From the NCBI GenBank assembly GCA_041659905.1, contig JBAZXK010000001.1, positions 58,670 through 122,669 on the forward strand: DNA of 64,000 bases, in the 5' to 3' direction. Made by a program: the position numbers and the translations under genes. Shown in pieces: positions 13,725 to 29,951 of the stretch (position 1 is the stretch's first letter; each line of letters opens with the position of its first letter). The notes beneath the pieces were generated by a model. The model was not told the DNA's origin. It did not search any database and was given only the letters and a program-made list of their open reading frames with translations. The stretch comes from Patescibacteria group bacterium. GTDB lineage: Bacteria; Patescibacteriota; Kazan-3B-28; UBA10110.

Positions 13725-13865
13725 GTCATTCCCGACCTTTCTCTTCTGTCATCCTCGACCGACGCGCATGGCGCAGTTCGGATCGGGGATCCCTGCCTAC
13801 CGGCAGGCAGGCAGGCCTAGATCCCAGATCCTGATTTGCCTTTGGCAATCCGGTCTGGGATGACA
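13725..13865. repeat. MITE-like element family B (GTCATTCCCG ... GGGATGACA) containing palindrome cctgcctaccggcaggcagg
   Basis: terminal inverted repeats; nearly identical copies at 55792-55894 and 59011-59129. Confidence 0.7.
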
Positions 13866-13866
13866 A

Positions 13867-14412: not shown

Positions 14413-14486
14413 TGGGGCGTGGCCAAGTGGTAAGGCAACGGCCTTTGAAGCCGTGATCGTAGGTTCGACCCCTACCGCCCCAGCCA
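14413..14486 (+). tRNA. tRNA-Gln (anticodon UUG), CCA encoded
   Basis: cloverleaf by eye: acceptor tggggcg/cgcccca, anticodon loop cTTTGaa, T-arm gtagg-ttcgacc-cctac, 3' CCA. Confidence 0.8.
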
Positions 14487-14510
14487 TAAATTCGGAATGA
14501 AAATGATCTA

Positions 14511-14786
14511 TTGGGGGATATAATAGCGGCATTATTTGCTAAACAAACTAATAATATGATGCTTTTGCCACAAACAATGATTCAGATTGTTGGCTCTGGA
14601 GGGGGGCTCATTATTGATCTGGACAAGCAGATGCTTTTAACTGATTCCATGATTCAAATAGCAGCAGCTGCAGCGCACTCAGGTGCCAAGGTTACATTTC
14701 GTCTAGGTAAAACTATCCTTCTGAGCGATGTCATGATTCAAATAGCAGCAGCTGGTCGTGGTTCTGTAACTTTTGATCTCAGATAA
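14511..14786 (+). CDS. small protein built from three tandem about 25-28 aa repeats (MLLxxxMIQIAAA...), TTG start
   Basis: in-frame DNA-level tandem repeat atgcttttRnc..atgattcaaatagcagcagctg x3; no RBS, alternative ATG at 14556; could instead be a non-coding minisatellite. Confidence 0.3.
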   Translation: MGDIIAALFAKQTNNMMLLPQTMIQIVGSGGGLIIDLDKQMLLTDSMIQIAAAAAHSGAKVTFRLGKTILLSDVMIQIAAAGRGSVTFDLR

Positions 14787-14793
14787 AAACATT

Positions 14794-15516
14794 ATGGATC
14801 AAAACTATTATTTTATTGATGGGTCTGCTCTCTTGGCCCAAGTACGGACTCTCTGGAAAAAAGAACCTGCGTTTAATTGGCGTAGACTTGATCCTCTGAA
14901 GTTTATTAAACATCTTGCTTTTTCATACCCTGATCTTGGCTCAGCTAACTATAAAAGAGCTGAATTCTTTTTTCCATCTGGAGAACAAAATATAGAAACA
15001 TATCTTTTGACACCAGAAATCACAGCACCTGGACTCGTGCGCGATGTCCATTTTAAATACTGTGGGGAAAAATTAGATCGTTCTGTAGCGTATGAAAAAT
15101 GGTTGGAGGAAGAAGTGCCTCCACAATGGAGAGATAGGTGTGTCAAAAGTGAGAAAGGAGTAGATATAGAAATATGCTGTAATGCCTTAAGACTAGCCTC
15201 TATGGGAAAAATGGACCGGTTGTTCTTCTTTACTAACGACCGAGACTTTATTCCTCTTTGTAAAACCCTAAAAGATTTCGGTACTAATGTAAGCTTGATC
15301 CATCTTTCTAAACATACCAACCCAAATAAGCAACTTATTGACGAATGTGATTCTTATGACGTTTTAAAAGAGGACTACCTTAATAATATATTTGAAGATT
15401 CAAAGTTATCAGATGATAAGCAAATAAGTTCTATTGAAGAGATAGTTGATGTTGATGCCAACGCTACCGTTGAATTATTGCCTGAATCCCAAGAAGTTTT
15501 AGATAAAGCAATCTGA
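14794..15516 (+). CDS. NYN/LabA-like (PIN-like) domain protein
   Basis: YYFIDGSAL start and KGVDIEICCNALRLASMGKMDRLFFFTNDRDFIPL match NYN domain acidic residues; upstream in-frame ATG at 14773 is also possible. Confidence 0.65.
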   Translation: MDQNYYFIDGSALLAQVRTLWKKEPAFNWRRLDPLKFIKHLAFSYPDLGSANYKRAEFFFPSGEQNIETYLLTPEITAPGLVRDVHFKYCGEKLDRSVAYEKWLEEEVPPQWRDRCVKSEKGVDIEICCNALRLASMGKMDRLFFFTNDRDFIPLCKTLKDFGTNVSLIHLSKHTNPNKQLIDECDSYDVLKEDYLNNIFEDSKLSDDKQISSIEEIVDVDANATVELLPESQEVLDKAI

Positions 15517-15602
15517 TCTCTACTATTCTCCGACATAAAATCAATAATAGTTGGCATTATCGACATAACTGCATGGTCATTACTTATTGGCAAAATTAAA
15601 AT

Positions 15603-16016
15603 ATGAAGATAAGGCGGTATATTTCAACCGATTATTCTGATATTAAGCAAAACCTTATTGAAGGGGATTTGTTCTACGAGGAGTTAGATAACGAAAATAG
15701 ACTAAATCAGAAGATTCAGAAAGACCCCAATTCTATTTTGGTTGCAGATGTAGATAACAAAGCAGTCGGTAATGTCTTTATTATGGAAGATGGCTGGATG
15801 GCTCTAATATTTCATTTAGCTGTCAGAAAAGATTATCAGCATAAAGGCATTGGCACAGAACTACTAAAAGCTGCCGAAGCCTACCTTAAAGATAAGGGAT
15901 TCGAGGAAGTTCAGATTGTAGTTAGAGAAGCCAACCCTGAACTGCTGGGGTATTATGAAAAACTAGGATATCAGAAAGGCGGTTCCTTCAGGTGGATGAC
16001 CAAAGAGTTGAAGTAG
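15603..16016 (+). CDS. GNAT family N-acetyltransferase
   Basis: acetyl-CoA binding motif RKDYQHKGIGTELL; about 85% identical paralog at 24184-24600. Confidence 0.8.
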   Translation: MKIRRYISTDYSDIKQNLIEGDLFYEELDNENRLNQKIQKDPNSILVADVDNKAVGNVFIMEDGWMALIFHLAVRKDYQHKGIGTELLKAAEAYLKDKGFEEVQIVVREANPELLGYYEKLGYQKGGSFRWMTKELK

Positions 16017-16057
16017 AACCTGATAAGATAGAATTGAAAGAAATTAATTAATGAACC

Positions 16058-16453
16058 ATGGATTATAAGGGAGCAATTATTAAGGAAAGCTTGGAGAATA
16101 AGGATGTTCTTAAAGACATCAAAATTATAGATACCAGGGTTGAAGAAGTTACAAAAGAGCACGAAACACCTTGGCTATCCCAGTGGACAATACACAATAT
16201 TGAAGTTCCTGAAGACAAGGCAGATGAAATTGCTGAGAAACTTAGCCATTCCCTTGATTCTAACAATGGTGGAACTTGGTATGCTGACTTCAAGAATGAC
16301 CAGTACCACTATATTATTTACCGAGATAAAGTCTTTAAGGTAGATAGAAAAAGCAAGGAGCAATATGATGAGGCAGAGCAGTATGGTATTTCTATTGGAA
16401 CCACACCAAGTCAGCTCATAAACTATGAGGGTGAGTATAAAGATGCGGTTTAG
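16058..16453 (+). CDS. hypothetical protein
   Basis: 131 aa acidic ORF in the island; no recognisable motif. Confidence 0.45.
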   Translation: MDYKGAIIKESLENKDVLKDIKIIDTRVEEVTKEHETPWLSQWTIHNIEVPEDKADEIAEKLSHSLDSNNGGTWYADFKNDQYHYIIYRDKVFKVDRKSKEQYDEAEQYGISIGTTPSQLINYEGEYKDAV

Positions 16454-16464
16454 GAAGAAATAAT

Positions 16465-17439
16465 ATGGCTAAAATAATCCCACTAAATCATAGGACTATA
16501 GTTCAGCTTGTCCCTGTTTCGCCATATAACTTCGATGCTACTATCCATAAGCCATCTCATTTTCCATCATCAGACAATGAGTGGGAAAAGGGCAAATACT
16601 GGATTACTATGCGGTGGAAAGGTCAGAACTTGGGTTTGAAATTAGAAAATGAGGGGACTACTAAGAAGCCAAAGCTAAAGCTGAATGTTTATTCTCAAAA
16701 GCCGCTGACCAAAGATTTTATTGCCACTCTTATCCCAGAAATAGAGTGGAGATTTAATTTAAAATCAGATATCAGTGAGTTTTCTAATAAGTTTGAAGAT
16801 GATGAGGTGTTAGGTCCAGTATTGAAGAAATGGAAGGGAATGAAGCCTGTGGCCGCTAATTCACTCTATGAAACTTTGATGATATATATTGTCTTGCAAA
16901 ATGCGACTGTACGGAGAACAGCCCAGATGTTAGAAAATCTCTTTAATAAATTCGGTAAGCAGGTGTCTTTTGGTAACAAAGTTCTGTATACTTTTTGGGA
17001 GCCGCAAGATATTGAAAAGGTGTCAGAGGAAGACTTAAGAGTTTTAAAGCTTGGCTACCGAGCAAAATTTATCAAGAAAATCAGTCAACAGTTCGCCAGT
17101 TGAGAAATGGACGAGTTTGCTATGAGGGAGTTGGGCAGGGAAGCCCTAAAACAACAAACCCTTAAGCTATATGGTATTGGTCCAGCTTCGGTAGAATATT
17201 TATTATTTGAGGATTTCTATCATTGTGAAGGGCTGGAAACCATACCACCTTGGGAACAGAAGATATTTTCTAAACTCATTTTTGATAAGAAGCTGGTCCC
17301 TGTAGATAAAATTCTAAAATTCTTCCGCAATAGATATAAAGGGTGGGAGAAACTGGCATCCCATTATATTTGGGAAGACATTTTTTGGAAGCGAAAGACC
17401 CAAAAGATAGATTGGTTGGAGAAAGAAATAAGATTATGA
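16465..17439 (+). pseudogene. HhH-GPD family DNA glycosylase (AlkA/Ogg-like) interrupted by an in-frame TGA at 17101-17103
   Basis: ORFs 16465..17103 and 17107..17439 are in the same frame; the stop falls inside the HhH-GPD domain, ahead of the helix-hairpin-helix LKLYGIGPASVEYLL. Confidence 0.55.
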
Positions 17440-18335
17440 ATAAAAACAATACATTGACTTTAACACTCCTGTTTCTGTCAGCTGTGTTATACAGTAGTTA
17501 TTTTGTTTCCACGAAGTATATGTTGCTTCAAGGTATTCACCCCCTTGCAATTGCTTCTTCTGTCGCCACTGTCCTCACCGTGTATATAACAGTTATTATG
17601 TTTTTTGATAGAAATTTTGCCAAAGAAGTGCACAGGTTAGATTGGTATAAAATTAGTCCGTTATTAATTGCTGGGATTGCCGTATCGGGTATCGGCCCGA
17701 TATTGCTCTTTTACGGGCAAACTATGACCTCTGTCACTAACAGTGCATTTATATTTCAACTTTCTCCCTTATTTGCTGGTTTGTTGGGCATAATTTTTTT
17801 AAAAGAAAGACCACGGTTGTATTTCTGGTTAAGTCTAATAATAATCCTAGCAGGACTATTCTTTTTAACTACCAAAGGAGGCGTTAGCTCTCCTACGTTA
17901 GGCGACCTTATGGTTTTGATATTAGCATTTTTATTTGGAGCTTATAATACAATCGCCCAAACATTCTCTGTTAAAATGTCGCCCTTGACATTAAGTAACA
18001 TAAGAATGTTAGTAGGGAATATTCTGGTCATATTAAGTGCTTGGTTTATATTGGGGTCGGGTTCTGTGTTAGCACTATTTCAATTCCCATTGTTGATTAT
18101 ATTCAGTGCCCTGTTTATTTATCTCTATGTATTCGCAACACACGTAGGTATTAAACAAATAGGTTCTTCTAATACAACCGCATTACTTACAGTTACAGCT
18201 TTGTTTTCCACCTTGTTTGCTTCTTTGATAGGTGAGATACCAATGCCCATTCAGTTTATAGGAGGGTTGATTGTTATATTAGGGATAGTGTTGTTGGTTA
18301 AGAGGGGAATGAAGACTGTTACCATTCAGTCTTAG
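17437..18335 (+). CDS. EamA/DMT family transporter
   Basis: about 10 TM helices, two EamA repeats; start taken at MNKNN rather than the upstream in-frame Met. Confidence 0.65.
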
Positions 18336-18451
18336 ATATCTAGCGCATTGGTTAGTTCAGGCATATAAACACACCTGTCCAACCTCCTGAAAATCGTTAG
18401 CGTTACTGGCGGGTCAGCTCGTGATATAATCCCAGTGTATATTTATAATTT

Positions 18452-19615
18452 TTGTATATGTTTAAAAGAATATTTTATAGTGCCTTAGTGGTTATTTTAA
18501 TTATGTCTATTTCGGCACCAGTCATGGCTGCGCCGACATTTTTAATAGCTGATGAAAATGGCATAGTTAGCCTATCCAAACCTGTCAATGACGATGCGTA
18601 TATTGCCGGCGGGAATGTAACGATTGATCAGGATATCTGGGGTGACTTATTTGTGGCCGGTGGCACCATTGATATTAATACCGACATTGCTGGGGATCTA
18701 TTTATTAGCGGTGGGAACATCTCTATTCGCGGTTCAGTCGGCGATGACGTCCACATAGGGGGAGGTAATATCTCCATTTACGGAGAGATCAAAGACGACC
18801 TGATGATTGGTGGCGGAACGGTGCTGATAGCCGACACCGCAACTGTGCGGGGAGATCTTTTGGTCGGGACAGGCAATTTTGACTTGTATGGCACAGTTCT
18901 AGGCAATGTCAAAGCCGGTTTTGGCAATGCTAAAATTGCTGGGGTAATCAATGGTAACGCCGATTTGCGCTACGGCGACGGGAAGCTCATTTTTGCTGAT
19001 GGGGCTAAGATCCGTGGCCAGTTAGATTATTGGGCAAAAAGTGAGAATAATTCCTTTGATAAGATCGCAGGGACTATCACATATCATAAAATGACCAGCT
19101 CCAGATCTAGCTTGCCAATATTCGCTACCATCTTTGTTCCCACGGTCATATTGATGGGAATGTTTTGGCCGTTTATCAGCATTTTACTTTTAGGGGGGTT
19201 ATTGATTCTATTGTTGCCTAAATATCTTCCCAGGATGGTCGAAACGACTAAAAAAGATTACTGGACAGCGCTCTGGCAAGGGTTACTGTTTATTATTGTG
19301 GCCCCGGTGTTAGCTTTGCTGATTGCTTTCACTGGAGTTGGCATACCTATATCAGTAATCATGATGCTGAGTTTTGTTATTTTGGCAATTCTCGCTAGCG
19401 TACCTGTGTCGATGGCGATCGGGAGTTATCTATTAAAATACAAAGAAGGCGACAAGGCGAAACAATTTGGCGCGCTGGCCATTGGGGCATTAGTGTATGT
19501 TATTGTCGGGTCATTCCCGCTCATCGGTTGGTTGGTTAAGCTTATTCTCTTTGTGATTGGCATCGGAGCGATCTGGGTAGATTCTCGCTCCATGATCAAA
19601 AAAGGAATTTATTAG
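18452..19615 (+). CDS. membrane protein with N-terminal signal peptide, bactofilin/polymer-forming-like Gly-rich beta-repeats and C-terminal multi-TM domain
   Basis: repeats of GG(N/T)(V/I)xIxGxVxGDL; C-terminal about 5 TM helices. Confidence 0.5.
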   Translation: MYMFKRIFYSALVVILIMSISAPVMAAPTFLIADENGIVSLSKPVNDDAYIAGGNVTIDQDIWGDLFVAGGTIDINTDIAGDLFISGGNISIRGSVGDDVHIGGGNISIYGEIKDDLMIGGGTVLIADTATVRGDLLVGTGNFDLYGTVLGNVKAGFGNAKIAGVINGNADLRYGDGKLIFADGAKIRGQLDYWAKSENNSFDKIAGTITYHKMTSSRSSLPIFATIFVPTVILMGMFWPFISILLLGGLLILLLPKYLPRMVETTKKDYWTALWQGLLFIIVAPVLALLIAFTGVGIPISVIMMLSFVILAILASVPVSMAIGSYLLKYKEGDKAKQFGALAIGALVYVIVGSFPLIGWLVKLILFVIGIGAIWVDSRSMIKKGIY

Positions 19616-19787
19616 ACACCATCCACTACCCATAATCCAGTGCATCAGAGGTAGTCTAAACGCACCCGATCAATTCAGACCCAATTTTAATAATGGGTCT
19701 GTTTTACTATCTAAATTTGAATCCTCGCGTGGAGTTAAAATCTGATAAACTAAAAATGCAGTAGTTTAATAGTTAACATCTAAATAA

Positions 19788-20126
19788 ATGACATTCCTAG
19801 CGCATTGGTTGGTTTATACCTTAGCTATCATCATCACGACTTATCTCTTGCCCGGCGTTAATCTAACTGGATTTGCCGCGGCCTTGGTTACGGCATTAGT
19901 TTTAGGTTTAATCAACACAGTAATTAGACCTATTCTAATTTTATTAACTTTGCCGATCAATATTATTACTCTCGGTTTGTTTACCTTTGTCATAAATGCA
20001 GCCTTAATCTTGCTCGCTGCCGCTATTGTCCCAGGATTTATAGTTCAAGGTTTTTGGGCGGCATTAATCTTTAGTATCGTTTTGGCTATTATTGCTGCTG
20101 TCTTAAACGGGTTGTTGGGGAAATAA
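19788..20126 (+). CDS. phage holin family 4 / DUF360-like small membrane protein
   Basis: 112 aa, 4 TM helices, resembles YvlD/Phage_holin_4_2 family. Confidence 0.55.
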   Translation: MTFLAHWLVYTLAIIITTYLLPGVNLTGFAAALVTALVLGLINTVIRPILILLTLPINIITLGLFTFVINAALILLAAAIVPGFIVQGFWAALIFSIVLAIIAAVLNGLLGK

Positions 20127-20284
20127 TCTGAACCCAGCGTGTAGGTTAGAACCAAACCCACTGAAAACTGGTAGGACCGGGCTTCGCTATACTATGGAAA
20201 TCCTGTAGTTTCGACCGAAGCTCTTATTCGAGAGTCACCCCAACACTGGCCCAGCCGTCTATTTAGTTTTGTATAATATAAAAT

Positions 20285-21379
20285 ATGAAGAAGAAAATCT
20301 TATTTCTCTACAATGGCGGCACTATCGGCCAAGTCCCCACTGAAGTAAATGGGGTAATTGTGTCGGCTCCGCCAAAAGATGCGAGCATCTTTAAGGCCGC
20401 CGTAGACCCGATTATTGAGCGGTTCGGTGATAAGTTCGATATTGTTTATGAAGTCGTTACTACCAAGGAATCATCCAGTATGACTCCTCAGGATTGGGAA
20501 AGACTTATCTTTCGCATCAAAAAAGCCCAGGACGAGGAAAATTTTGATGCCGTAGGTATTGCTCATGGCACTGACACGCTGGCTTATACGGCCACAGCTC
20601 TTAGTTTTGCTCTGCATGGCGTCAATCCGAGTCAAAGCGGTTTGCGTATTCCTATTTGCTTAACCGGTTCCCAAAACCCCGTGTATATGGAAGGCGGTGA
20701 TGGGCGGTTTAATCTTGAAAATATGTTCAGGACCATCGAGCAGTGTATGGATGTGGGCGTGGGTGATGTCTTGATCAACTTTTGGAATCGCGTGCTGTTA
20801 GGTTGCCGCACAGTCAAGGTGAGTGAACGCGATTTTGATGCTATGCAGACTCCGGCGGTGTTGAATGCGGGGATAATTAACTCCCGAGGAGTGATTATTT
20901 ATCCTGAACGGGTCAGACTGGCAAAGAACGCCTTGCCAAAAATCCAATTAGCCCCCAAATTTGCTCGGGGGGTGATCAGTTTTGAACTAACTCCGGGACT
21001 GGATCCGAATCTTCTGCTTAGTTTTATAACAGCCGGGGGGATGTCGGCGATGATTCTAAAATCTCTTGGAGAAGGCAATGTTTGCAGTGAAGGGGCTTAC
21101 AATATGATTCCCGCAATCAAGCAGATCACGGGTGAATATATGACGCCTATTTTTATGGCATCGAAATTTATTGGCGGTAATGCTGACTCGGCGGTGGATG
21201 CCAGCGGCGCAGCGGCGATTAATGCTGGCGCTATTGCCTGTTACGATACTACCGACATCGCCATTGATATAAAAGTTCGTTGGCTGGCGGGAAATGGGCT
21301 TTGTTCCACTATTTCTGATTATTCTAAAGCCATGAAAACGAGCTATTGCGGAGAGGTAACCGAGCCAAAAGTACAGTAA
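20285..21379 (+). CDS. L-asparaginase type I / GatD-like amidohydrolase
   Basis: N-terminal LYNGGTIG threonine motif and HGTDTLAYTA motif of the asparaginase family. Confidence 0.75.
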   Translation: MKKKILFLYNGGTIGQVPTEVNGVIVSAPPKDASIFKAAVDPIIERFGDKFDIVYEVVTTKESSSMTPQDWERLIFRIKKAQDEENFDAVGIAHGTDTLAYTATALSFALHGVNPSQSGLRIPICLTGSQNPVYMEGGDGRFNLENMFRTIEQCMDVGVGDVLINFWNRVLLGCRTVKVSERDFDAMQTPAVLNAGIINSRGVIIYPERVRLAKNALPKIQLAPKFARGVISFELTPGLDPNLLLSFITAGGMSAMILKSLGEGNVCSEGAYNMIPAIKQITGEYMTPIFMASKFIGGNADSAVDASGAAAINAGAIACYDTTDIAIDIKVRWLAGNGLCSTISDYSKAMKTSYCGEVTEPKVQ

Positions 21380-21410
21380 ACGTAGTATTAAGGCCTACTC
21401 GAGATAATCA

Positions 21411-21818: not shown

Positions 21819-21837
21819 AACCTGATAAGATAGATTT

Positions 21838-22287: not shown

Positions 22288-22288
22288 T

Positions 22289-22705: not shown

Positions 22706-22709
22706 ATTT

Positions 22710-23090
22710 ATGAGCAAATTATATTTTGACCACACATACGTTTCTGTCCAGGATATGGATAGGGCTATAAACTTTTACGAAACTCTTTTGAATAAAAAGG
22801 TTTCTTGTCGTGAAGAGAATATCTGGGCTGATTTTGACATAGGGGAAGGGTGTTATTTTGGCTTAATCAACCCCGACATTGTTAGTAAGGAGAGAAAAAT
22901 CGGGAATAACTCTATCTCTGTTTTTGCAACTGATAATGTTGATGAGGCTTACGAGAAGTTAAAAGATATGGGTGTAAAGATTATCCACGACATAGAAACT
23001 TTAAAATATACGGATTACTTTTATAGAATGTTTTTATGTGAAGATACCGAAGGCAACCTTATTGAAATCGCTCAGTATGACCGGTCTTAA
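22710..23090 (+). CDS. VOC/glyoxalase/bleomycin-resistance family protein
   Basis: paired beta-alpha-beta-beta-beta modules; N-terminal HTYVSVQDMDRAINFY pattern. Confidence 0.7.
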   Translation: MSKLYFDHTYVSVQDMDRAINFYETLLNKKVSCREENIWADFDIGEGCYFGLINPDIVSKERKIGNNSISVFATDNVDEAYEKLKDMGVKIIHDIETLKYTDYFYRMFLCEDTEGNLIEIAQYDRS

Positions 23091-23102
23091 CAGGATAAAT
23101 CA

Positions 23103-23552
23103 ATGAGCAAACAACCCATCCGCAATAATCTGATTATAGAACTTCATGTCCCTGATTTTGATGTCGCCAAGGAATTTTATGGGATATTAGGCTTCAGAGT
23201 AATTCTTGAACATCCTATTACAACTACCGAACCTGGCTATCTGGTGATGAAAAGACCAGATGTATTAGGGGATAGTATCATTAATTTTTATGGCGGTAAC
23301 GAGCAAGTTTATCAACAATCATATTTCAAAAACTTTCCTTCTACTACCAAAAGAGGCTATGCCACAGAGTTGACGATGCCTATCTCTAATGTTGATGATT
23401 TCTTTAATCAAATTTCACCCAAAATTAAAGACCATATTATGCAGGAGATTAAAGATAAGAAAGACGGGGATATGGCTTGGCGAGATTTTCGGGTAGGAGA
23501 CCCATTTGGTTTCTATTTAAGATTCACCGAACTGATAGATTGGGGACAATAA
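23103..23552 (+). CDS. VOC/glyoxalase-like protein
   Basis: ELHVPDFDVAKEFYGILGF N-terminal VOC pattern. Confidence 0.5.
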   Translation: MSKQPIRNNLIIELHVPDFDVAKEFYGILGFRVILEHPITTTEPGYLVMKRPDVLGDSIINFYGGNEQVYQQSYFKNFPSTTKRGYATELTMPISNVDDFFNQISPKIKDHIMQEIKDKKDGDMAWRDFRVGDPFGFYLRFTELIDWGQ

Positions 23553-23562
23553 TCAATATTGT

Positions 23563-24150
23563 ATGGCAAAAGTAAAAGTTTTAATCGAAGGATATGCGAA
23601 GGAGTTGGAAAATGGCTGGATAGCCAGCTCTACCGTCTGTTTGGTTACTACGGGGGATAAGAGAATAATTACGGATCCAGGCTGTAATCGAGAAAAACTA
23701 TTAGAAGCACTTAAAGGTGAGAACTTAGCTACGGGCGATATAGATTATGTCTTTTTGTCTCATTGTCATCCTGACCATGTTCTTTTAGCAGGAATTTTTG
23801 AGAAGGCAAAGTTTGTAACCTTTGACTCCAACTTACTTTACGATAAAGACCATCTCTCTAAATTTGATATACATATATTAGGTGAAGATATTGAGATTGT
23901 TGAGACGCCCGGACACGTACTGGAACACCTTTCATTAATAGTTAATACATCTCAAGGCAGAGTGGCGATTGCCGGGGATGTTATCTGGTGGGTAGATGGA
24001 GAAGAACAAAAGTTTGATATAGATCAGGAGGATCATTCTCAAGCAAAAGGAATGAATATGAAACAGTTAGTGGAAAGTAGACGAAATCTTTTAGAACACG
24101 CAGATTATATAATCCCTGGCCATGGGAAAATGTTTAAAGTCCAAAAATAA
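23563..24150 (+). CDS. MBL-fold metallo-hydrolase
   Basis: HxHxDH motif (LSHCHPDHV) and downstream His/Asp ligands. Confidence 0.8.
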   Translation: MAKVKVLIEGYAKELENGWIASSTVCLVTTGDKRIITDPGCNREKLLEALKGENLATGDIDYVFLSHCHPDHVLLAGIFEKAKFVTFDSNLLYDKDHLSKFDIHILGEDIEIVETPGHVLEHLSLIVNTSQGRVAIAGDVIWWVDGEEQKFDIDQEDHSQAKGMNMKQLVESRRNLLEHADYIIPGHGKMFKVQK

Positions 24151-24183
24151 TAGTAAAAATGCTTTATCCCAAATATTGAAATT

Positions 24184-24600
24184 ATGACGAAAATAAGACC
24201 ATACATTCCCATTGATTATCCAGATATTAAACAAAACCTTATTGAAGGGGATTTGTTTTACGAGGAGTTAGATAACGAAGGCAGAATAAATCAGAAAATT
24301 CAAAATAACCCTAATTCCATCTTAGTTACAGAGTTGGATGGTAAAGCAGTGGGTAATGTCTTTATTATGGACGATGGCTGGATGGCTCTAATATTTCATC
24401 TTGCTGTTAGAAAAGATTATCAGCATAAAGGTATTGGCACCGAACTACTAAAAGCTGCCGAATCCTATCTTAAAGATAAGGGCTATAAGGAAGTTCAAAT
24501 TGTAGTTAGAGAAGCCAACCCAGAGTTGCTGGGGTATTATGAAAAACTAGGGTATCAGAAGGGCGGTTCCTTCAGATGGATGACTAAAGAGCTACACTAG
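24184..24600 (+). CDS. GNAT family N-acetyltransferase (paralog of 15603-16016)
   Basis: about 85% aa identity to the first GNAT; same conserved junction motif after the stop. Confidence 0.8.
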   Translation: MTKIRPYIPIDYPDIKQNLIEGDLFYEELDNEGRINQKIQNNPNSILVTELDGKAVGNVFIMDDGWMALIFHLAVRKDYQHKGIGTELLKAAESYLKDKGYKEVQIVVREANPELLGYYEKLGYQKGGSFRWMTKELH

Positions 24601-24619
24601 AACTTGATAAGATAAATTT

Positions 24620-25138
24620 ATGAACGAAACTCTCAAAACTATTCTTAATCGGAAAAGCATTAGGGATTACACGGATAAACCTGTGAGTAAAGCAGATTTA
24701 ATCTTGCTTTTAAAGGCGGCTATGGCTGCTCCCAGCGGGGGTGACACTCGATCATGGTCTTTCTTCGTGATTCAAAATAAGGCGCTGTTGAAGGAATTGT
24801 CGGATATTCTAAAATACGGTCACATGATCCGGGAAGCGGGAGCTGTGATTGTAGTTTGTGGCAATCCCAAAAAATCTACTTTTGACGGTGATCAATACTG
24901 GATGTTTGATTGTTCTGTTGCTGCAGAAAATATTTTGTTGGCAGCCGAATCATTAGGTTTAGGGGCAGTTTGGACTGCTGTTTATCCTAATAAAGTTAGA
25001 ATTAAAAACGTGAAGAAAGTTCTTAATACCCCGAAAGAAATCGAGCCATTATGCACTATCTCGATCGGCCATCCTAAGTCAAAAGTAAAACCGAAAAACA
25101 AATTTGATCCCAAGAATATACATTGGAACAAATGGTAA
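24620..25138 (+). CDS. nitroreductase family protein
   Basis: RKSIRDY and PSGGDTRSW motifs of the NADH oxidase/nitroreductase fold. Confidence 0.8.
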   Translation: MNETLKTILNRKSIRDYTDKPVSKADLILLLKAAMAAPSGGDTRSWSFFVIQNKALLKELSDILKYGHMIREAGAVIVVCGNPKKSTFDGDQYWMFDCSVAAENILLAAESLGLGAVWTAVYPNKVRIKNVKKVLNTPKEIEPLCTISIGHPKSKVKPKNKFDPKNIHWNKW

Positions 25139-25141
25139 ATT

Positions 25142-25549
25142 ATGAAATCTTCTCTTGACCACATTTCTATTAATGTTTCTAATTCTCAAAAATCCATCCC
25201 CTTTTATAGGTCGTTATTTAAGTATCTTGAATATGACTTTCTAAAGGATAAGAAAGACTCCTTAGCAGTAAGAAAAAAAGGTGACTGCGATTTCTGGATT
25301 TATCCCACAGACAGTAAACACATACCTCATGGTTTTTGTGTAAATAATACAGGGCTAGGCCACATAGCTTTTAGGGTATCTTCTAAAGAAGATGTTGATC
25401 GATTTCACGAAGAATATCTAAAACCCAATAATGTTAGGGTATTCAATGGAGGGCCCAAAGCTTTTCCTCAATACACTCCCGATTATTACGCTGTTTTCTT
25501 TGAAGACCCCGACAGGATAAAATTAGAAGTTAATTCATTCAAGAGATAA
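25142..25549 (+). CDS. VOC/glyoxalase family protein
   Basis: LDHISINVSN..FY N-terminus and GLGHIAFRVSS second module. Confidence 0.6.
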   Translation: MKSSLDHISINVSNSQKSIPFYRSLFKYLEYDFLKDKKDSLAVRKKGDCDFWIYPTDSKHIPHGFCVNNTGLGHIAFRVSSKEDVDRFHEEYLKPNNVRVFNGGPKAFPQYTPDYYAVFFEDPDRIKLEVNSFKR

Positions 25550-25551
25550 CT

Positions 25552-26418
25552 ATGAATGCGGAATTTATCAGATTTACTACCGAAGATAAATTGATCCTAC
25601 AGGGGATTATTTATCGACCGAACAACTCCAGCGAAAAGGCCTATCTGCATATTCACGGCATGGCAGGTAATTTCTATGAGAATAGATTTCTGGATGCTAT
25701 GGCAAAAGAACTAACAGATAATTGCTATGCATTTATGAGCATCAACACCAGGGGGCACGACTACATTGCTGATTTCCCAATCGCTGGACCTGAAGAAAAG
25801 TCCAAAAAAATAGGGGATGCCTATGAAATATTCGAGGAATGCCTGCTGGATATCAAACCCGCAATAGATTATCTACAAAAGCATGGCTATAAGGAAATCA
25901 TTCTCTGTGGTCATAGTTTAGGAGCCGTAAAAGTTGCTTATTATATAACTAAAACCCAAGACCAGAGGGTTAATAAACTTATTCTAATGTCCCCTCCAGA
26001 TATGGTTGGACTGACTGAGAAAGAAAATGATTCTGAAAAGACAATGGAACAAGCCAAGAAAATGGTTTCCGAGGGCAAAGGTAACGAACTATTGCCCGGA
26101 TTGCTGTGGGGTTGGTATTACCTATCGGCCAATACCTATCTAAATTTTAGTGTCCGGGATAACCCTATTGATATTTTCAATACCTACGACAAAGCTAAAC
26201 TATCACTGCTTAGTGAAATTAGAATTCCAACTTTAGCTTTTTTGGGCGAGAAAGATGATGCAGCAATAATGTCCCCTCGAGAAGCTTTAGAGATTATGAA
26301 GAGCAAAGCTACACAAGCTCCGATATTTGATATAGATATTATCCCCAGTGCTCCGCACAGTTACTTTAGTCATGAAAGGGAAATGGTTCAAAAAATAGTG
26401 AGCTGGCTATTGATATGA
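25552..26418 (+). CDS. alpha/beta hydrolase
   Basis: nucleophile elbow GHSLGA, catalytic His near C-terminus. Confidence 0.7.
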   Translation: MNAEFIRFTTEDKLILQGIIYRPNNSSEKAYLHIHGMAGNFYENRFLDAMAKELTDNCYAFMSINTRGHDYIADFPIAGPEEKSKKIGDAYEIFEECLLDIKPAIDYLQKHGYKEIILCGHSLGAVKVAYYITKTQDQRVNKLILMSPPDMVGLTEKENDSEKTMEQAKKMVSEGKGNELLPGLLWGWYYLSANTYLNFSVRDNPIDIFNTYDKAKLSLLSEIRIPTLAFLGEKDDAAIMSPREALEIMKSKATQAPIFDIDIIPSAPHSYFSHEREMVQKIVSWLLI

Positions 26419-27017
26419 AAATAAAAACTATTATTTTTGATGTGGGCGGAGTCTTGGTTGAGAAAATATTCAACCCCATTCTAAATGAGCTGGCCAACAG
26501 ATATGATCTGGACTATGCTGTTTTAAAAGAATATTCCTGGTCACTGTTTGATAAAGTGATGCTAGGAGAAATGACCGAAAAGGAATTATTTAAGGATATC
26601 ATCAATAAATTCAATATTCCCGCGGAGGTAGCTTTATTAGAAGAAAGGTCTACGCATCTCAATCCTATCCCGGAAGTTTGGGAGTTTGTAAAGAAATTGC
26701 AGTACAAATATAAACTCATTATTCTGTCTAATTTAGGCCGGGACTGGGTCAAACTGAGAGAAGAGCAATTTCATATTTCCGATTGGTTTGATGAAGTTGT
26801 GTGGTCCTGCGATGTTGGTATCAATAAACCAGATAGACGGATTTTTAACTATATAATTGATAAGTTTGCTCTCGATCCGGAAGCATGTGTTTTTATAGAT
26901 GATAAACAAAATAATATTGATGCGGCTCAGAGCTTTGGAATGAAGGGAATAGTTTATCAGAATCCTCCACAGCTTGAGCAAGACTTGGCTGCATTAGGAA
27001 TTGATGTTGCATCTTGA
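26415..27017 (+). CDS. HAD family hydrolase
   Basis: motif I FDVGGVL at N-terminus and C-terminal FIDD motif. Confidence 0.8.
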   Translation: MKIKTIIFDVGGVLVEKIFNPILNELANRYDLDYAVLKEYSWSLFDKVMLGEMTEKELFKDIINKFNIPAEVALLEERSTHLNPIPEVWEFVKKLQYKYKLIILSNLGRDWVKLREEQFHISDWFDEVVWSCDVGINKPDRRIFNYIIDKFALDPEACVFIDDKQNNIDAAQSFGMKGIVYQNPPQLEQDLAALGIDVAS

Positions 27018-27178
27018 ATATTAGCCAAATTTAATTAAATTATGTGATAAATTTCAACGGCTCAATGGGCTGAGCCGTTGAAAGGAGCAGTTGTATACAA
27101 GTGCGGAGGTTCGGAGTATTCTGAAATATCCAATTATTGCAATCTTGAAAATAAAAAATACGGAGGTGACTTGCTGCT

Positions 27179-27505
27179 ATGAAAGCATTGGTCACGAAGC
27201 ATCGCAATTTTGATATCACTATCGATCGTGATGAATACAACACACTGCGGAAATCTTCCGTCAGTGGGGATTTGTTGCTAAGCAACGAAAACGGGACTCT
27301 CGGCGAGGAGCCGACTGGCAAATCGATCAAGTTAGCCCGTGAGGTCAACGCCAAAGAGTCCGTTTCTCTTAAGTTTGCAGGCACCTGGGAAGAGACTAAA
27401 GAAGTGGAAGTTGTCATAAATCCAGATGCTTTCGAGTATCTCGAAGACACCTGGGTGCGCGCTAAAAGTGGTGCTAGTAATATTCTGATCCAATGCCAGC
27501 CTTAG
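27179..27505 (+). CDS. hypothetical protein
   Basis: GGAGG RBS 8 nt upstream; terminator ccccgtaaatccggggg+T at 27535-27565. Confidence 0.5.
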   Translation: MKALVTKHRNFDITIDRDEYNTLRKSSVSGDLLLSNENGTLGEEPTGKSIKLAREVNAKESVSLKFAGTWEETKEVEVVINPDAFEYLEDTWVRAKSGASNILIQCQP

Positions 27506-27676
27506 TGCCCAATTTTTTGTACCACTTCTCCTCTTTATCAAATGAATACCCCCGTAAATCCGGGGGTTTTTCTTAATTATCGGGTCTGTCGTGAGAGATT
27601 TCTTATAAATAATTAGGTGATATAGGAGATATCTGTTAGTCTGGATGAGCATTATTAATAAATCAGAGGAGATCTT

Positions 27677-27871
27677 ATGTGCGACCAAACAACCAATCCA
27701 CCCACAGAGGGTGAAGAGACCAAGTGTACTTGTTCTGAAACTTGCCCGGACGATTGTAGCTGCGAAAAGTGTGGATGTGGCAAAGAAGCAGCAGAAACAG
27801 AAACACCTACCGAAACAGAAGAGACAGAAGAAAAGCCTGCAGAAGGGGGAGAAGAACCAGCTGCAGAATAA
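27677..27871 (+). CDS. Cys-rich metallothionein-like small protein with acidic Glu/Thr-rich tail
   Basis: KCTCSETCPDDCSCEKCGCGK (9 Cys in 21 aa); AGGAG RBS; terminator aacgccctgccggtgtcggcagggcgtt at 27893-27925. Confidence 0.5.
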   Translation: MCDQTTNPPTEGEETKCTCSETCPDDCSCEKCGCGKEAAETETPTETEETEEKPAEGGEEPAAE

Positions 27872-28015
27872 TTTAAATCTTTCGTGTTATTAAACGCCCT
27901 GCCGGTGTCGGCAGGGCGTTTAAATTAGCTCCTAGAGCAAAGATATTGACTTTATTCTTCTTTTTGATAGGATAGCCCAAGTACCTTATATCTTATCTCG
28001 CAAGGAGGAGATATC

Positions 28016-28273
28016 TTGCGATCAACATTCTTTCCTTTGGGGGCAGAAGTCACTTCAATAGGAGGTAAACCTCTCTCGGGAGTAGTGGTTGGATGCCGAC
28101 GGCTGTGGACAGAAGCGGAGAAACAAAAATACTCTGCAGACAAATTATTGCAAATAGTTTTCTTCTCTTCGTCACCCCGATCAGCATTGCAATCGGCGCA
28201 CGTCAGGGAGTTCCCACCGCACGAGCTAAAGTTGCTACCACAACTTCACCTCCAACAGCGGCTAGCGAGTTAA
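28016..28273 (+). CDS. hypothetical small protein (TTG start)
   Basis: strong AAGGAGGA RBS 7 nt upstream of TTG; terminator gcaagcctgtcatgtgacaggcttc+T6 at 28296-28330; sequence itself uninformative. Confidence 0.25.
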   Translation: MRSTFFPLGAEVTSIGGKPLSGVVVGCRRLWTEAEKQKYSADKLLQIVFFSSSPRSALQSAHVREFPPHELKLLPQLHLQQRLAS

Positions 28274-28487
28274 TTTATTTCCGGATTGGTTAAATGCAAG
28301 CCTGTCATGTGACAGGCTTCTTTTTTATATCATGTACAATAAATATACCCGCGCCCGAAGTATCGCGCGCGAGGTTTAAAACTATCCCACTACTAACAAA
28401 CCTGGAGGTGGACGAGCTTGTGGGGCATTGCTCTTACCCGCCTTGTCAGGGCAAGGCGGGTTTTCTTCTTTATGATAGAATCTAAAT

Positions 28488-29090
28488 ATGTCAGAAGAGG
28501 TAGAAAAAATTTTAGTGGTGCCAGCCGAGTGGGCAAATAATTTATGCCAGCCGGGCTTTACTTCGGATATTCATCCAAATTTTTTGGCTAAATTGCCAGA
28601 AATAGCTTTTTTTATGGATCGGCCAGCCGCCGAAATTAATCCAAAATTCCGGCAAATTATTCCATATATATTAGTAAAATATCAGAATAAGTATTTAACG
28701 GTCACTCGCCGGACCACGCAAACGGAAGTCAGATTACATAACAAAGTTAGCTTTGGGATTGGAGGACATATCAACCCGATTGATGGTGATACAACCAATA
28801 TTTTAGATGCCGGATTGCGCCGAGAATTGAGTGAAGAATTAGCAACCGATAATCCGCCGAAGTTTGATGAACTAAAACTGCTCGGCTTGTTGCGCGATGA
28901 TGTTAATGAATTGGAACAAGTACATTTGGGCGTGGTGATGCTGTGGGAAACAACTGAACCAATCGCCATTCGCGAAACCGACAAAATGGACGGGGAGTAC
29001 CTGACTTTAAATGAAATCGGCGCACGGCGAGAGCGGTTGGAAAATTGGTCCCGGTTGGTCTATGACCACCTAGGTGTCATGGTCAGCTAA
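28488..29090 (+). CDS. NUDIX-like hydrolase (degenerate Nudix box)
   Basis: GIGGHINPIDG...RRELSEELA approximates the GX5EX7REUXEEXGU box with the first Glu replaced by Asp. Confidence 0.45.
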   Translation: MSEEVEKILVVPAEWANNLCQPGFTSDIHPNFLAKLPEIAFFMDRPAAEINPKFRQIIPYILVKYQNKYLTVTRRTTQTEVRLHNKVSFGIGGHINPIDGDTTNILDAGLRRELSEELATDNPPKFDELKLLGLLRDDVNELEQVHLGVVMLWETTEPIAIRETDKMDGEYLTLNEIGARRERLENWSRLVYDHLGVMVS

Positions 29091-29188
29091 AAATAAGTAA
29101 CTCGTATATTCTGAAATAACTTGCCTGGGAAGTGTCTTTCTGTTACTCTGGGCTCAGTTTTCAAAAAATCTCGAAGGAGGTTCAGCCA

Positions 29189-29584
29189 ATGCCTGGCACC
29201 TTTATCATCGCTCTTTTAATTATTTTTGTACTAGCAGCTGTAGCAGTATCGCGGGGCAAGAAAAGCCGAAAAGTTTCTATTTCCTCTTCTATGTCCACTC
29301 AAGCGTCTTTCCAGCCAACGCCTACTAATACACCAAGGGTTGTTAAAAACTGGAAAGAGGCACCACGGGCGTCTGTCGGCGACAATCTTCATAGGAAACC
29401 TTCATCAGAAAAATCGATAACTGATAATGCCACGAACAAATTCAAACCCACTTCTGGCTATGAAGATGCTATCGACGAACAGCTCAAGAAAGCTAAGAAA
29501 TTAGAGCGCGGTGGAACCGGCGGGACTGATTCTCTTCCAAAAGAGGTTGCGGGAGATAATCCGAAAGAAGATAAAAAGCCGTGA
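29189..29584 (+). CDS. small membrane-anchored protein
   Basis: AGGAGG RBS before MPGTFII; one TM helix then low-complexity hydrophilic region; terminator at 29616-29645. Confidence 0.5.
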   Translation: MPGTFIIALLIIFVLAAVAVSRGKKSRKVSISSSMSTQASFQPTPTNTPRVVKNWKEAPRASVGDNLHRKPSSEKSITDNATNKFKPTSGYEDAIDEQLKKAKKLERGGTGGTDSLPKEVAGDNPKEDKKP

Positions 29585-29648
29585 ACTTACTGCCAGCACC
29601 TGCCAGCCAGATCTAAACCCCCTTTTCCCATTTGAGGGGGTTTGTTAT

Positions 29649-29677
29649 ATTGACAAGCACCTAAATAAACGCTAAGA
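29649..29677 (+). promoter_or_regulatory. sigma70-like promoter (TTGACA-17-TAAGAT)
   Basis: consensus -35, 17-nt spacer. Confidence 0.4.
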
Positions 29678-29713
29678 TAATTTCATTCCAAAGTAATATT
29701 TGTTCTTTGTATG

Positions 29714-29741
29714 GTGGGGTTCGATTCCACCTTCCCACCCA
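29714..29741 (+). other. tRNA 3'-half-like fragment (T-arm gtggg-gttcgat-tccac, acceptor 3' strand, encoded CCA) with no 5' half
   Basis: no complementary 5' acceptor strand within 500 nt; downstream terminator at 29786-29820 is homologous to the terminator after the tRNA at 30318-30392. Confidence 0.5.
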
Positions 29742-29951
29742 AATAAATTCGATCATTTTAATAGTATTGTTCGGTACTACCTCCTAGCCCCCCGTCGTCC
29801 GGCGGGGGCACCTTTTTATTTAAATTAATTTCCTCTTAACAAAAAAACTAGTTTTGATATCCTAGAGCCACTTAGGCGGTTATCTTTTCTGTGGTGGAAA
29901 TTTAAGGAAAAGATAAATCTCAACCGTCTGCATCTTGAGGAGGAAGAGAGT

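What the first reader, a model, noticed from the sequence alone, without database searches (positions are those of the whole stretch)
14413..29820. About 15 kb AT-rich accessory island starting at tRNA-Gln and ending near a tRNA 3'-fragment
Everything from just downstream of tRNA-Gln (14413-14486) to about 29.8 kb is AT-richer than the flanking murC/dnaX/cysS backbone. It is packed with same-strand small genes: a triplicated-repeat ORF plus NYN, two GNATs, three VOC/glyoxalases, an MBL-fold protein, a nitroreductase, NUDIX, a/b and HAD hydrolases, an asparaginase, a holin-like protein, a broken HhH-GPD glycosylase, and a metallothionein-like protein. It contains none of the family A/B MITEs that pepper the backbone. 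It ends at a tRNA 3'-half-like fragment with an encoded CCA. No integrase is present, so if it is an island it is old or was mobilised in trans.
Basis: partly seen in the sequence, partly recalled or inferred. Interest (0 to 1): 0.55.

Follow-up and report, generated by a model that had tools for sequence, protein, structure and literature searches.

The report
Patchwork accessory gene island beside tRNA-Gln
A 13-kb stretch just after a tRNA-Gln gene in an uncultured ultra-small (Patescibacteria) bacterium is a real, patchwork block of acquired small-enzyme genes that related genomes lack at this site, but it is an ordinary kind of genomic island with no machinery for moving itself.

Summary
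The window is a Patescibacteria (CPR) MAG contig.

- **Extent.** The lineage-specific DNA runs from the base after tRNA-Gln (14,487) to about 27,607, not 29,820.
- **Synteny.** One sister species joins tRNA-Gln almost directly to the NUDIX-like gene found here at 28,488. Four other related genomes carry different genes upstream of that gene. One of them has a decayed serine-recombinase gene next to its tRNA-Gln.
- **Composition.** Only two sub-blocks are foreign: A (14.49-18.34 kb) and C (21.38-27.02 kb). They have GC 0.37-0.38, CpG depletion and AGA/AGG/ATA-rich codon usage, and they share an 86%-identical GNAT gene. Block B between them (18.3-21.4 kb) and the 27.0-29.8 kb stretch look like the host.
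- **Transfer.** Close homologues of the α/β-hydrolase (86-88%) and the asparaginase (83%) sit in other CPR genomes in unrelated contexts. In one of those genomes IF-2 is only 40% identical to the window's.
- **Mobility.** There is no integrase, no att repeat, and no phage or plasmid similarity.
- **tRNA fragment.** The piece at 29.7 kb is a partial copy of the local tRNA-like/terminator module, not of tRNA-Gln.

Islands are already documented in Patescibacteria, so this is a new member of a known kind.

The parts
14413..14486 (+). tRNA-Gln(UUG) with encoded CCA. It is the left anchor: similarity to sister genomes ends exactly at its last base.
   Evidence: ARAGORN and Rfam, 67 bits. The alignment with L004 and L005 diverges right after CCA.
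14487..18335 (+). Block A, a compositionally foreign, AT-rich, CpG-depleted gene array. Genes: repeat ORF 14511-14786, NYN 14773-15516, GNAT-1 15603-16016, unknown 16058-16453, HhH-GPD 16465-17439 with an in-frame TGA at 17101-17103, and EamA transporter 17436-18335.
   Evidence: GC 0.372. Dinucleotide signature distance from the backbone is 120, above every backbone chunk of similar size (maximum 113); rhoCG is 0.52. Domains. No homologue at this locus in 6 related loci.
18336..21379 (+). Block B, with host-like composition. Genes: DUF8173 protein 18452-19615, holin-like PF04020 protein 19788-20126 and asparaginase 20285-21379.
   Evidence: GC 0.441, signature distance 59, rhoCG 1.01. DUF8173 comes from the precomputed Pfam annotation of the identical contig; my own Pfam scans of this ORF found nothing. 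The asparaginase is 83% identical to that of a MAG labelled Uhrbacteria, whose IF-2 is 40% identical to the window's. None of these genes is at this locus in relatives.
20125..20174 (+). A conserved element of about 50 bp. It is the only island sequence shared with the same slot in sister species. Function unknown.
   Evidence: It matches L005 6072-6115 at about 91-93% and L088 4471-4520 at 90% (97% over a 36-nt core). It is unique in the window. No Rfam hit. Fold z-score -0.7.
21380..27017 (+). Block C, a compositionally foreign, tightly packed 11-gene array. Genes in order: DUF6884-like, NUDIX, unknown, VOC, weak VOC, MBL-fold, GNAT-2, nitroreductase, VOC, α/β hydrolase, HAD.
   Evidence: GC 0.379, signature distance 95 (null maximum 81), rhoCG 0.75. 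Domains. GNAT-2 region 24189-24629 is 85.7% identical in DNA to 15605-16043. The α/β hydrolase has 86-88% homologues in other CPR contigs with reshuffled neighbours.
27018..27607 (+). Tail of the lineage-specific DNA: ORF 27179-27505 (108 aa, no family match) and a strong bidirectional hairpin terminator at 27548-27567.
   Evidence: Conservation with L090 and L091 begins at 27608-27610.
27608..29090 (+). Conserved right anchor, not part of the island. It holds the Cys-rich (metallothionein-like) ORF 27677-27871, small leader ORFs, and the NUDIX-family phosphoesterase gene 28488-29090.
   Evidence: The NUDIX-like protein is 63-79% identical in L005, L085, L088, L089, L090 and L091. In L005 it lies 270 bp after tRNA-Gln.
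29091..29811 (+). A separate small variable slot. It holds ORF 29132-29584 (150 aa, no homologues found), the tRNA 3'-like fragment at about 29703-29741, and a copy of the terminator module (hairpin 29789-29808).
   Evidence: The slot is absent in L005 and filled by other ORFs in L088 and L089. The fragment plus module aligns to 30345-30446. The module is conserved after the tRNA-like gene in L005, L088, L089 and L090.
30317..30393 (+). tRNA-like gene with a 9-nt anticodon loop, followed by terminator 30419-30438. It is a conserved downstream landmark and the likely source of the 29.7-kb fragment.
   Evidence: Rfam tRNA 56 bits. ARAGORN structure. Orthologous positions in relatives carry 6-, 7- and 8-nt loops.

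Best explanation
Window 14,487-27,607 (13.1 kb) is a lineage-specific accessory region. It fills a hypervariable slot between tRNA-Gln and a conserved NUDIX-like gene module in a Patescibacteria genome.

It is a composite built by several horizontal acquisitions from other CPR bacteria, not one mobile element. Two AT-rich, CpG-depleted gene arrays (A, 14.49-18.34 kb; C, 21.38-27.02 kb) share a GNAT paralogue. They flank a 3-kb block (B) with host-like composition, which holds a 50-bp landmark also present in the same slot of sister species.

The cargo is a same-strand set of small stand-alone enzymes (NUDIX, HAD, VOC, MBL, nitroreductase, GNAT, α/β hydrolase, asparaginase) plus a transporter. 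I infer they are expressed as long co-directional operons and serve metabolite damage control, detoxification or scavenging.

The region has no integrase, att repeats, or conjugation or phage genes, so it cannot move by itself now. I infer two possible routes of arrival. One is site-specific integration next to tRNA-Gln followed by loss of the recombinase. The other is homologous or illegitimate recombination of taken-up DNA at conserved anchors.

Shown: boundaries, absence in relatives, foreign composition, mosaic structure, discordant identities. Inferred: route of entry, expression, physiological role.
For: **Synteny**
- L005 (CysS 80% identical) is colinear through cysS, SdpI, ArsR and tRNA-Gln. 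It then jumps to window 28433+, and only the 44-50-bp element 20125-20174 is retained.
- L090 and L091 resume similarity at 27608-27610.
- None of the 20 island ORFs has a homologue at the locus in L004, L005 or L088-L091.
- Those genomes carry five different gene sets in the slot.

**Composition**
- Gene GC, GC3 and codon tests are all significant.
- Dinucleotide signature distances of A (120) and C (95) exceed all backbone chunks of similar size. B (59) and the 27.0-29.8 kb stretch (38) fall within the null.
- In 2-kb windows, CpG depletion (rhoCG 0.49-0.79) is concentrated in 13-18 kb and 23-28 kb. One further window (29-31 kb) dips to 0.75. Other low-GC spots have rhoCG 0.84-1.0.

**Mosaic structure**
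- The GNAT duplicate is 85.7% identical over 441 bp.
- A 27-nt gene-junction motif recurs at 16014, 21816 and 24598.

**Horizontal transfer**
- The α/β hydrolase is 86-88% identical to proteins on CPR contigs with unrelated contexts. Their neighbours are reshuffled and far more divergent (NUDIX 59%, VOC 62%).
- The asparaginase is 83% identical to that of GCA_016209345.1, against 40% for IF-2.

**Hotspot and mobility trace**
- The sister MAG has a stop-riddled large-serine-recombinase fragment 1.7 kb after its tRNA-Gln, at a contig end. Its other contig carries a MerR/HTH_17 gene in the slot.

**Not an assembly artefact**
- Window 675-22051, which spans the left junction and the A/B and B/C borders, is 100% identical in an ENA contig and an NCBI contig.

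**Precedent**
- Hundreds of genomic islands, with mostly intra-phylum transfers, have been reported in Patescibacteria (PMC12455944).
Against: - There are no flanking direct repeats and no recombinase, so integration is inferred, not shown.
- Only two sister genomes include the tRNA-Gln side. The other related contigs are short and show only the right side.
- Block B has host-like composition, so it may be ancestral DNA rather than acquired.
- Codon-usage differences could partly reflect low expression. That would not explain the lower GC1 and GC2 or the CpG depletion.
- The taxonomic labels of the MAGs used for the identity-discordance argument are unverified.
- The asparaginase is a slowly evolving protein (60-65% identical even to DPANN archaea).
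- All enzyme assignments are at superfamily level and below NCBIfam family cut-offs, so the physiological role is speculative.
Confidence: 0.72

Rival explanations
1. One reading: a single island of about 15.4 kb that integrated site-specifically into tRNA-Gln. It would be bounded on the right by an attR-like tRNA 3' fragment at about 29.7-29.8 kb, with the integrase since lost.
For: - The island starts exactly at the tRNA-Gln 3' end.
- A tRNA T-arm/acceptor-like fragment lies at 29703-29741.
- The 9-mer ATAAATTCG directly follows both tRNA-Gln (14486-14494) and the fragment (29743-29751). It occurs only 4 times in the window.
- With that flank included, tRNA-Gln becomes the top-scoring tRNA against the fragment, at 35 against a runner-up of 34.
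Against: - No copy of the tRNA-Gln 3' end exists elsewhere within 3 mismatches.
- On the tRNA part alone the fragment ranks tRNA-Gln 23rd of 71 (score 24; mean 21.8, sd 5). It matches the orthologue of the local tRNA-like gene better (32).
- The fragment is followed by the terminator module that follows the tRNA-like gene at 30.4 kb here and in four relatives.
- The segment 27,608-29,090 is conserved backbone. In L005 it sits next to tRNA-Gln without any island.
- Composition of 27.0-29.8 kb is host-like.
Confidence: 0.07
2. Vertical inheritance with differential loss. On this view the block is ancestral to the clade, L005 and others deleted it, and its low GC reflects weak selection on poorly expressed accessory genes rather than foreign origin.
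For: - CPR genomes are streamlined and prone to gene loss.
- Block B and the 50-bp element suggest that some ancestral DNA lies inside the region.
- The island genes have their closest homologues within CPR, not outside it.
- GC skew and gene orientation match the host throughout.
Against: - Five related genomes each carry different genes in the slot, not subsets of this block.
- The dinucleotide signatures of A and C lie outside the backbone range. CpG depletion is absent from other low-GC backbone genes.
- GC1 and GC2 are lower too.
- Neighbouring genes show discordant identities (86% against 59-62%), and the asparaginase (83%) is discordant with IF-2 (40%).
Confidence: 0.12
3. A decayed prophage, or a defence or plasmid-derived element. 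The suggestion rests on the holin-family gene, the NYN nuclease and a small repeat protein that matches a phage protein family.
For: - PF04020 'phage holin 4_2' domain, E = 6e-32.
- Repeat ORF 14511-14786 hits phrog_27431 at E = 1e-14.
- Weak NYN and DpdC-like hits in PADLOC.
Against: - No capsid, tail, terminase, portal, integrase, replication or conjugation genes appear among the ORFs scanned.
- Two viral-contig scans found no relatives.
- The phage collection gave no DNA similarity, and the plasmid collection gave only a 93-bp chance-level hit.
- All PADLOC hits are weak (E of about 3.6e-4 or weaker).
- From my own knowledge, PF04020 is widespread as a non-phage membrane protein family.
Confidence: 0.04
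4. An assembly or binning chimera, in which AT-rich DNA from another organism was joined to this contig.
For: - Short-read MAG assemblies can be chimeric at repeats and tRNA genes.
- Composition changes abruptly at the tRNA.
Against: - The identical sequence across the left junction and the A/B and B/C borders appears in separately deposited ENA and NCBI contigs.
- Proteins from blocks B and C and from the right anchor are all recorded on the same 343,940-bp contig length class.
- GC skew and gene orientation are continuous.
- The 50-bp element in block B is shared with sister genomes.
Confidence: 0.03

Closest known systems
tRNA-adjacent genomic islands / regions of genomic plasticity, as predicted in Patescibacteria by IslandViewer-type methods (PMC12455944)
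   Same: It lies next to a tRNA gene and has atypical GC, codon usage and dinucleotide signature. It is absent from close relatives and carries accessory cargo. The donors appear to be mainly other Patescibacteria.
   Different: It has no integrase, no flanking direct repeats and no mobility genes. It is a composite of two foreign arrays around a host-like core. The same slot holds unrelated cargo in each sister genome.
Integrative elements that target tRNA 3' ends (tyrosine- or serine-recombinase islands, integrative mobilizable elements)
   Same: The insertion point is exactly at the tRNA 3' end. A sister species has a decayed large-serine-recombinase gene in the same slot.
   Different: The defining recombinase and the attL/attR repeat pair are both missing here. 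The nearby tRNA fragment is not derived from tRNA-Gln and lies outside the variable DNA.
Integron gene-cassette arrays
   Same: Many small, same-strand, promoter-poor, functionally unrelated genes are packed head to tail. Content varies among relatives.
   Different: There is no intI. No attC-like imperfect inverted repeats separate the genes: most junctions in the tightly packed arrays are under 45 bp, and several overlap. The only recurring junction motif is a 27-nt stop/RBS/start context.

Membership tests
Genomic island (descriptive sense) | Present in one lineage and absent at the orthologous locus of close relatives | tested here: met
   In L005 tRNA-Gln is followed within 270 bp by the NUDIX-like gene. 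No island ORF has a homologue in 6 related loci.
Genomic island (descriptive sense) | Nucleotide composition or codon usage deviating from the host genome | tested here: met
   Met for blocks A and C (GC 0.37-0.38, signature distances 120 and 95 above the null maxima, rhoCG 0.52 and 0.75). Not met for block B or for 27.0-29.8 kb.
Genomic island (descriptive sense) | Location next to a tRNA gene | tested here: met
   Divergence from L004 and L005 begins at the base after the CCA of tRNA-Gln.
Integrative element (site-specific, tRNA-targeting) | Encodes an integrase or recombinase | tested here: not met
   No recombinase, integrase or transposase domain in any scanned ORF of 14.4-31.5 kb. The scan covered every + strand ORF of 100 aa or more, plus the minus-strand ORF 27040-27450. 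Only the sister MAG L004 has a degraded Zn_ribbon_recom fragment.
Integrative element (site-specific, tRNA-targeting) | Flanking direct repeats (attL/attR) that duplicate the tRNA 3' end | tested here: not met
   No second copy of the tRNA-Gln 3' end within 3 mismatches. The fragment at 29.7 kb ranks tRNA-Gln 23rd of 71. No border repeats were found.
Prophage | Virion structural, packaging or lysis module | tested here: not met
   The only phage-flavoured hits are a PF04020 membrane protein and one PHROG of unknown function. There are no structural genes, no viral-contig relatives and no phage DNA similarity.
Integron | intI integrase plus attC sites between cassettes | tested here: not met
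   No intI. No attC-like repeats turned up in the direct-repeat search, though inverted repeats were not searched for specifically. Gene junctions in the packed arrays are only a few to about 40 bp long.
ICE / conjugative or mobilizable island | Relaxase, type IV coupling protein or type IV secretion genes, or an oriT | tested here: not met
   No such domains among the ORFs scanned. No plasmid similarity apart from a 93-bp chance-level hit. oriT is not testable with these tools.

The most novel reading that the evidence does not exclude
The interval from tRNA-Gln to the NUDIX-like gene is a dedicated gene-capture locus of this CPR clade. Unrelated small-gene arrays would be exchanged there without a resident integrase. 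The conserved 50-bp element (20125-20174, 90-97% identical in three species despite total turnover of the flanking genes) and the tRNA/tRNA-like anchors would serve as recombination or regulatory sites for a recombinase acting in trans or for transformation-driven cassette exchange.
Probability: 0.07. Interest if true: 0.6.

Novelty: new member of a known kind. Interest (0 to 1): 0.27.

Why it matters
This is a clean, base-resolved example of how streamlined, host-dependent Patescibacteria still remodel their small genomes. A single slot beside a tRNA gene accumulates arrays of small damage-control or detoxification enzymes taken from other CPR lineages, and each sister species holds different cargo there. 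That agrees with published surveys reporting abundant, mostly intra-phylum transfer in Patescibacteria, and it adds a defined hotspot with known anchors that could be tracked across metagenomes. It does not reveal a new mechanism or a new type of element. Its practical value is in annotation, since it marks these genes as accessory, and as a marker locus for strain-level population studies.

Tried and rejected
- **Metagenome-contig scan** with the NUDIX-like protein alignment returned only one irrelevant 29% hit.
- **Viral-contig scans** with the NYN protein and the repeat ORF found nothing.
- **Phage and plasmid DNA searches** of both island halves gave no match, apart from a 93-bp chance-level hit.
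- **The 50-bp element and leader** gave no Rfam hit in the window or in L005. The fold z-score of -0.7 shows no significant structure. I considered a riboswitch or T-box leader upstream of the asparaginase and dropped the idea for lack of any support.
- **PADLOC** gave only weak NYN, DpdC and CARF-like hits, so the defence-island reading was rejected.
- **NCBIfam** put all enzymes below family cut-offs, so no specific functions can be assigned. That includes a glyoxalase I/II pair reading of VOC plus MBL. One NCBIfam call failed because of the in-frame stop.
- **Direct-repeat search across 14.3-30.5 kb** found only the GNAT duplication, the intragenic triple repeat and short, probably chance, families.
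- **The tRNA fragment as attR of tRNA-Gln** was rejected. The shared 9-mer ATAAATTCG remains an unexplained coincidence.
- **Absence of MITEs from the island** is only weak evidence. By my own estimate from the repeat list, about 3 copies would be expected at the density seen outside the island, giving a Poisson P(0) of about 0.05, and the island has little intergenic space.

Full report
**Source and observation.** The window is a contig of an uncultured Patescibacteria (CPR) bacterium. Its CysS protein occurs on NCBI GCA_041664485.1 (JBAYKS010000001.1) and on an ENA assembly contig. Both are 100% identical to window 675-22051. tRNA-Gln(UUG) lies at 14413-14486.

The same-strand ORFs are, in order:
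- a small ORF with a triple internal repeat (family D3; it hits phrog_27431 at E = 1e-14);
- NYN, GNAT and an unknown ORF;
- an HhH-GPD reading frame interrupted by one in-frame TGA at 17101-17103;
- EamA, a 387-aa protein, a PF04020 holin-family protein and an asparaginase. The 387-aa protein is DUF8173 in the precomputed annotation; my own Pfam scans found nothing for it;
- a tightly packed 11-gene array: DUF6884-like, NUDIX, unknown, VOC, weak VOC, MBL, GNAT, nitroreductase, VOC, α/β hydrolase and HAD.

All enzyme matches are at superfamily level and below NCBIfam family cut-offs.

**Composition.** The AT-richness is real but not uniform.
- Twenty island genes have median GC 0.383 against 0.442 for 50 other genes (Mann-Whitney p = 2e-7). 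GC3 is 0.376 against 0.444 (p = 3e-6), and GC1 and GC2 are also lower.
- AGA+AGG make up 58% of Arg codons against 24%, and ATA makes up 27% of Ile codons against 13%. The pooled synonymous-codon chi-square gives p = 1e-23.
- The lowest-GC 13.1-kb window of the whole 64 kb starts at about 14.1 kb.
- The region splits into four parts: 14487-18335 (GC 0.372), 18336-21379 (0.441), 21380-27017 (0.379) and 27018-29820 (0.437).
- Dinucleotide signature distances from the backbone are 120 for block A and 95 for block C. Both exceed every backbone chunk of similar size (maxima 113 and 81). Block B (59) and the 27.0-29.8 kb stretch (38) fall within the null. A and C are closer to each other (66) than to the backbone.
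- CpG is depleted in A and C (rhoCG 0.52 and 0.75, against 1.01). The depletion is concentrated in those stretches. One further 2-kb window at 29-31 kb dips to 0.75. Other low-GC spots in the window have rhoCG of 0.84-1.0.

**Synteny.** A scan of GTDB species genomes with CysS found two close relatives, L004 (83%) and L005 (80%).
- L005 is colinear through cysS, SdpI, ArsR and tRNA-Gln. It then continues with the homologue of window 28433-29062, the ORF at 29952, a tRNA-like gene and the Ser-hydrolase gene. About 14 kb is therefore missing there, except for a 44-bp match to window 20130-20173.
- L004 has different genes after tRNA-Gln: a 436-aa ORF, a 98-aa ORF, and a stop-riddled fragment of a large serine recombinase at the contig end.
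- A second contig of the same MAG (L088) shows eight other genes upstream of the NUDIX-like gene, among them MerR/HTH_17, DUF4325 and a GNAT.
- Three more relatives found through the NUDIX-like protein (L089, L090, L091; 75-79% identical) each carry yet other genes upstream.
- None of the 20 island ORFs between 14511 and 27017 has a homologue in any of these loci.
- Nucleotide similarity to L090 (90%) and L091 (83%) begins at window 27608-27610, just after a strong hairpin terminator at 27548-27567.

The lineage-specific DNA is therefore 14,487 to about 27,607. The Cys-rich ORF and the NUDIX-like gene are backbone.

**The tRNA fragment.**
- A T-arm/acceptor-like fragment lies at about 29703-29741. 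No copy of the tRNA-Gln 3' end exists elsewhere within 3 mismatches.
- Scored against the 3' halves of 71 tRNAs, the fragment ranks tRNA-Gln 23rd (24; mean 21.8, sd 5). It matches the L089 tRNA at the orthologous downstream position better (32).
- The fragment is followed by a copy of the 'CACTACCTCCT + GC hairpin' module that follows the tRNA-like gene at 30317-30393 here and in L005, L088, L089 and L090.
- It belongs to a second, small variable slot (29,091-29,811). That slot is empty in L005 and holds other ORFs in L088 and L089.
- One coincidence stays unexplained. The 9-mer ATAAATTCG directly follows both tRNA-Gln and the fragment, and it occurs only 4 times in the window.

**Origin of the cargo.**
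- The two GNAT genes (15605-16043 and 24189-24629) are 85.7% identical in DNA. This links blocks A and C.
- A 27-nt stop/RBS/start junction motif recurs at 16014, 21816 and 24598.
- The α/β hydrolase has homologues at 86-88% identity in other CPR contigs (the named ones are Minisyncoccia, Woesebacteria, Microgenomates and Daviesbacteria at 58-67%). Their contexts are unrelated and the partners reshuffled: GNAT-hydrolase-VOC in L092 and NUDIX-hydrolase in L093. Those neighbours are only 59-62% identical.
- The asparaginase is 81-86% identical to genes sitting singly among core genes of higher-GC CPR genomes. It is 83% identical to that of GCA_016209345.1 (labelled Uhrbacteria), whose IF-2 is only 40% identical to the window's. 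The next tier of asparaginase homologues (60-65%) is DPANN archaea.
- These discordances indicate gene-by-gene or block-wise transfer among CPR lineages.

**Mobility.**
- No integrase, recombinase, transposase, relaxase or phage structural domain was found in the ORFs scanned.
- The viral-contig scans found no relatives, and the phage and plasmid collections gave no meaningful similarity.
- PADLOC hits are weak. No border repeats were found.
- MITE-like repeats occur about 12 times outside the island and never inside it. This is weak evidence that the island is younger than the MITE spread, because the island has little intergenic space.

**Interpretation.** The best reading is a composite accessory region in a recombination hotspot beside tRNA-Gln. 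Two foreign arrays (A and C) surround a host-like block (B). Block B holds the one landmark shared with sister species, the 50-bp element at 20125-20174.

The route of entry is inferred. It may have been site-specific integration with later loss of the recombinase, as the relic in L004 suggests. It may equally have been recombination of taken-up DNA. Genomic islands and mostly intra-phylum transfer are already documented for Patescibacteria (PMC12455944). This is therefore a new member of a known kind, of modest interest.

Noticed in passing
window 30317-30393 (also L005 7378-7452, L089 3209-3282, L091 2750-2820, L090 about 4470-4555): A tRNA-like gene with conserved D- and T-arms but an unstable anticodon loop across relatives. 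The loop is 9 nt here, 8 nt in L005 (4-base 'UGAA'), 7 nt (CAT) in L089 and 6 nt in L091. ARAGORN calls no tRNA in L090 or L088 (in L088 the gene looks degenerate in the alignment). Wherever that position lies within the fetched contig, it is followed by the conserved 'CACTACCTCCT + GC hairpin' terminator module. It could be a decaying redundant tRNA or a tRNA-like processing element.
   Followed up: partly
window 20125-20174; L005 6072-6115; L088 4471-4520: An element of about 50 bp (core GAACCCAGYGTGTAGGTTAGAACCAAA) is conserved at 90-97% in three species, although all the genes around it differ. It is unique in the window, has no Rfam match and shows no significant fold.
   Followed up: partly
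window 31556-31720, compared with L005 8640-10687, L088 8603-10698 and L089 4020-5623: In three relatives the Ser-hydrolase gene is followed by groES-groEL. In the window it is followed directly by the 1593-aa PA14-like surface protein gene. No groES or groEL homologue exists anywhere in the 64 kb.
   Followed up: partly
window 16465-17439: The HhH-GPD glycosylase reading frame is interrupted by a single in-frame TGA (17101-17103), and the frame continues for 110 more codons. This could be a pseudogene or a recoding event. The sequence is identical in two deposited assemblies.
   Followed up: partly
window 16014-16040, 21816-21842, 24598-24624: A 27-nt gene-junction motif, TAGAACYTGATAAGATARATTTATGAA (stop, spacer, start), recurs three times at 81-93% identity. 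One copy lies outside the GNAT duplication, which suggests recombination scars or a shared translational coupling signal.
   Followed up: no
window 12114-12344, 13778-13868, 37818-37905, 43036-43077, 55792-55848, 59004-59133, 63868-63992, and 3315-3437 with 38020-38176: Short MITE-like intergenic repeat families. Copies at 79-92% identity also occur in the related loci L004, L005, L093 and L095, so the families are shared across the clade.
   Followed up: partly
L093 4484-11691: A 12-kb contig from a related CPR genome carries five tRNA-Met(CAT) genes on both strands. This is an unusual local density of CAT-anticodon tRNAs.
   Followed up: no
window 14486-14494 and 29743-29751: The 9-mer ATAAATTCG directly follows both the CCA of tRNA-Gln and the tRNA 3'-like fragment, and it occurs only 4 times in the window. 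The coincidence is unexplained, because the tRNA parts themselves are not specifically similar.
   Followed up: yes
L004 16002-16703 (minus strand): A stop-riddled fragment of a large serine recombinase (Zn_ribbon_recom domain) lies 1.7 kb downstream of tRNA-Gln in the sister MAG, at a contig end.
   Followed up: partly
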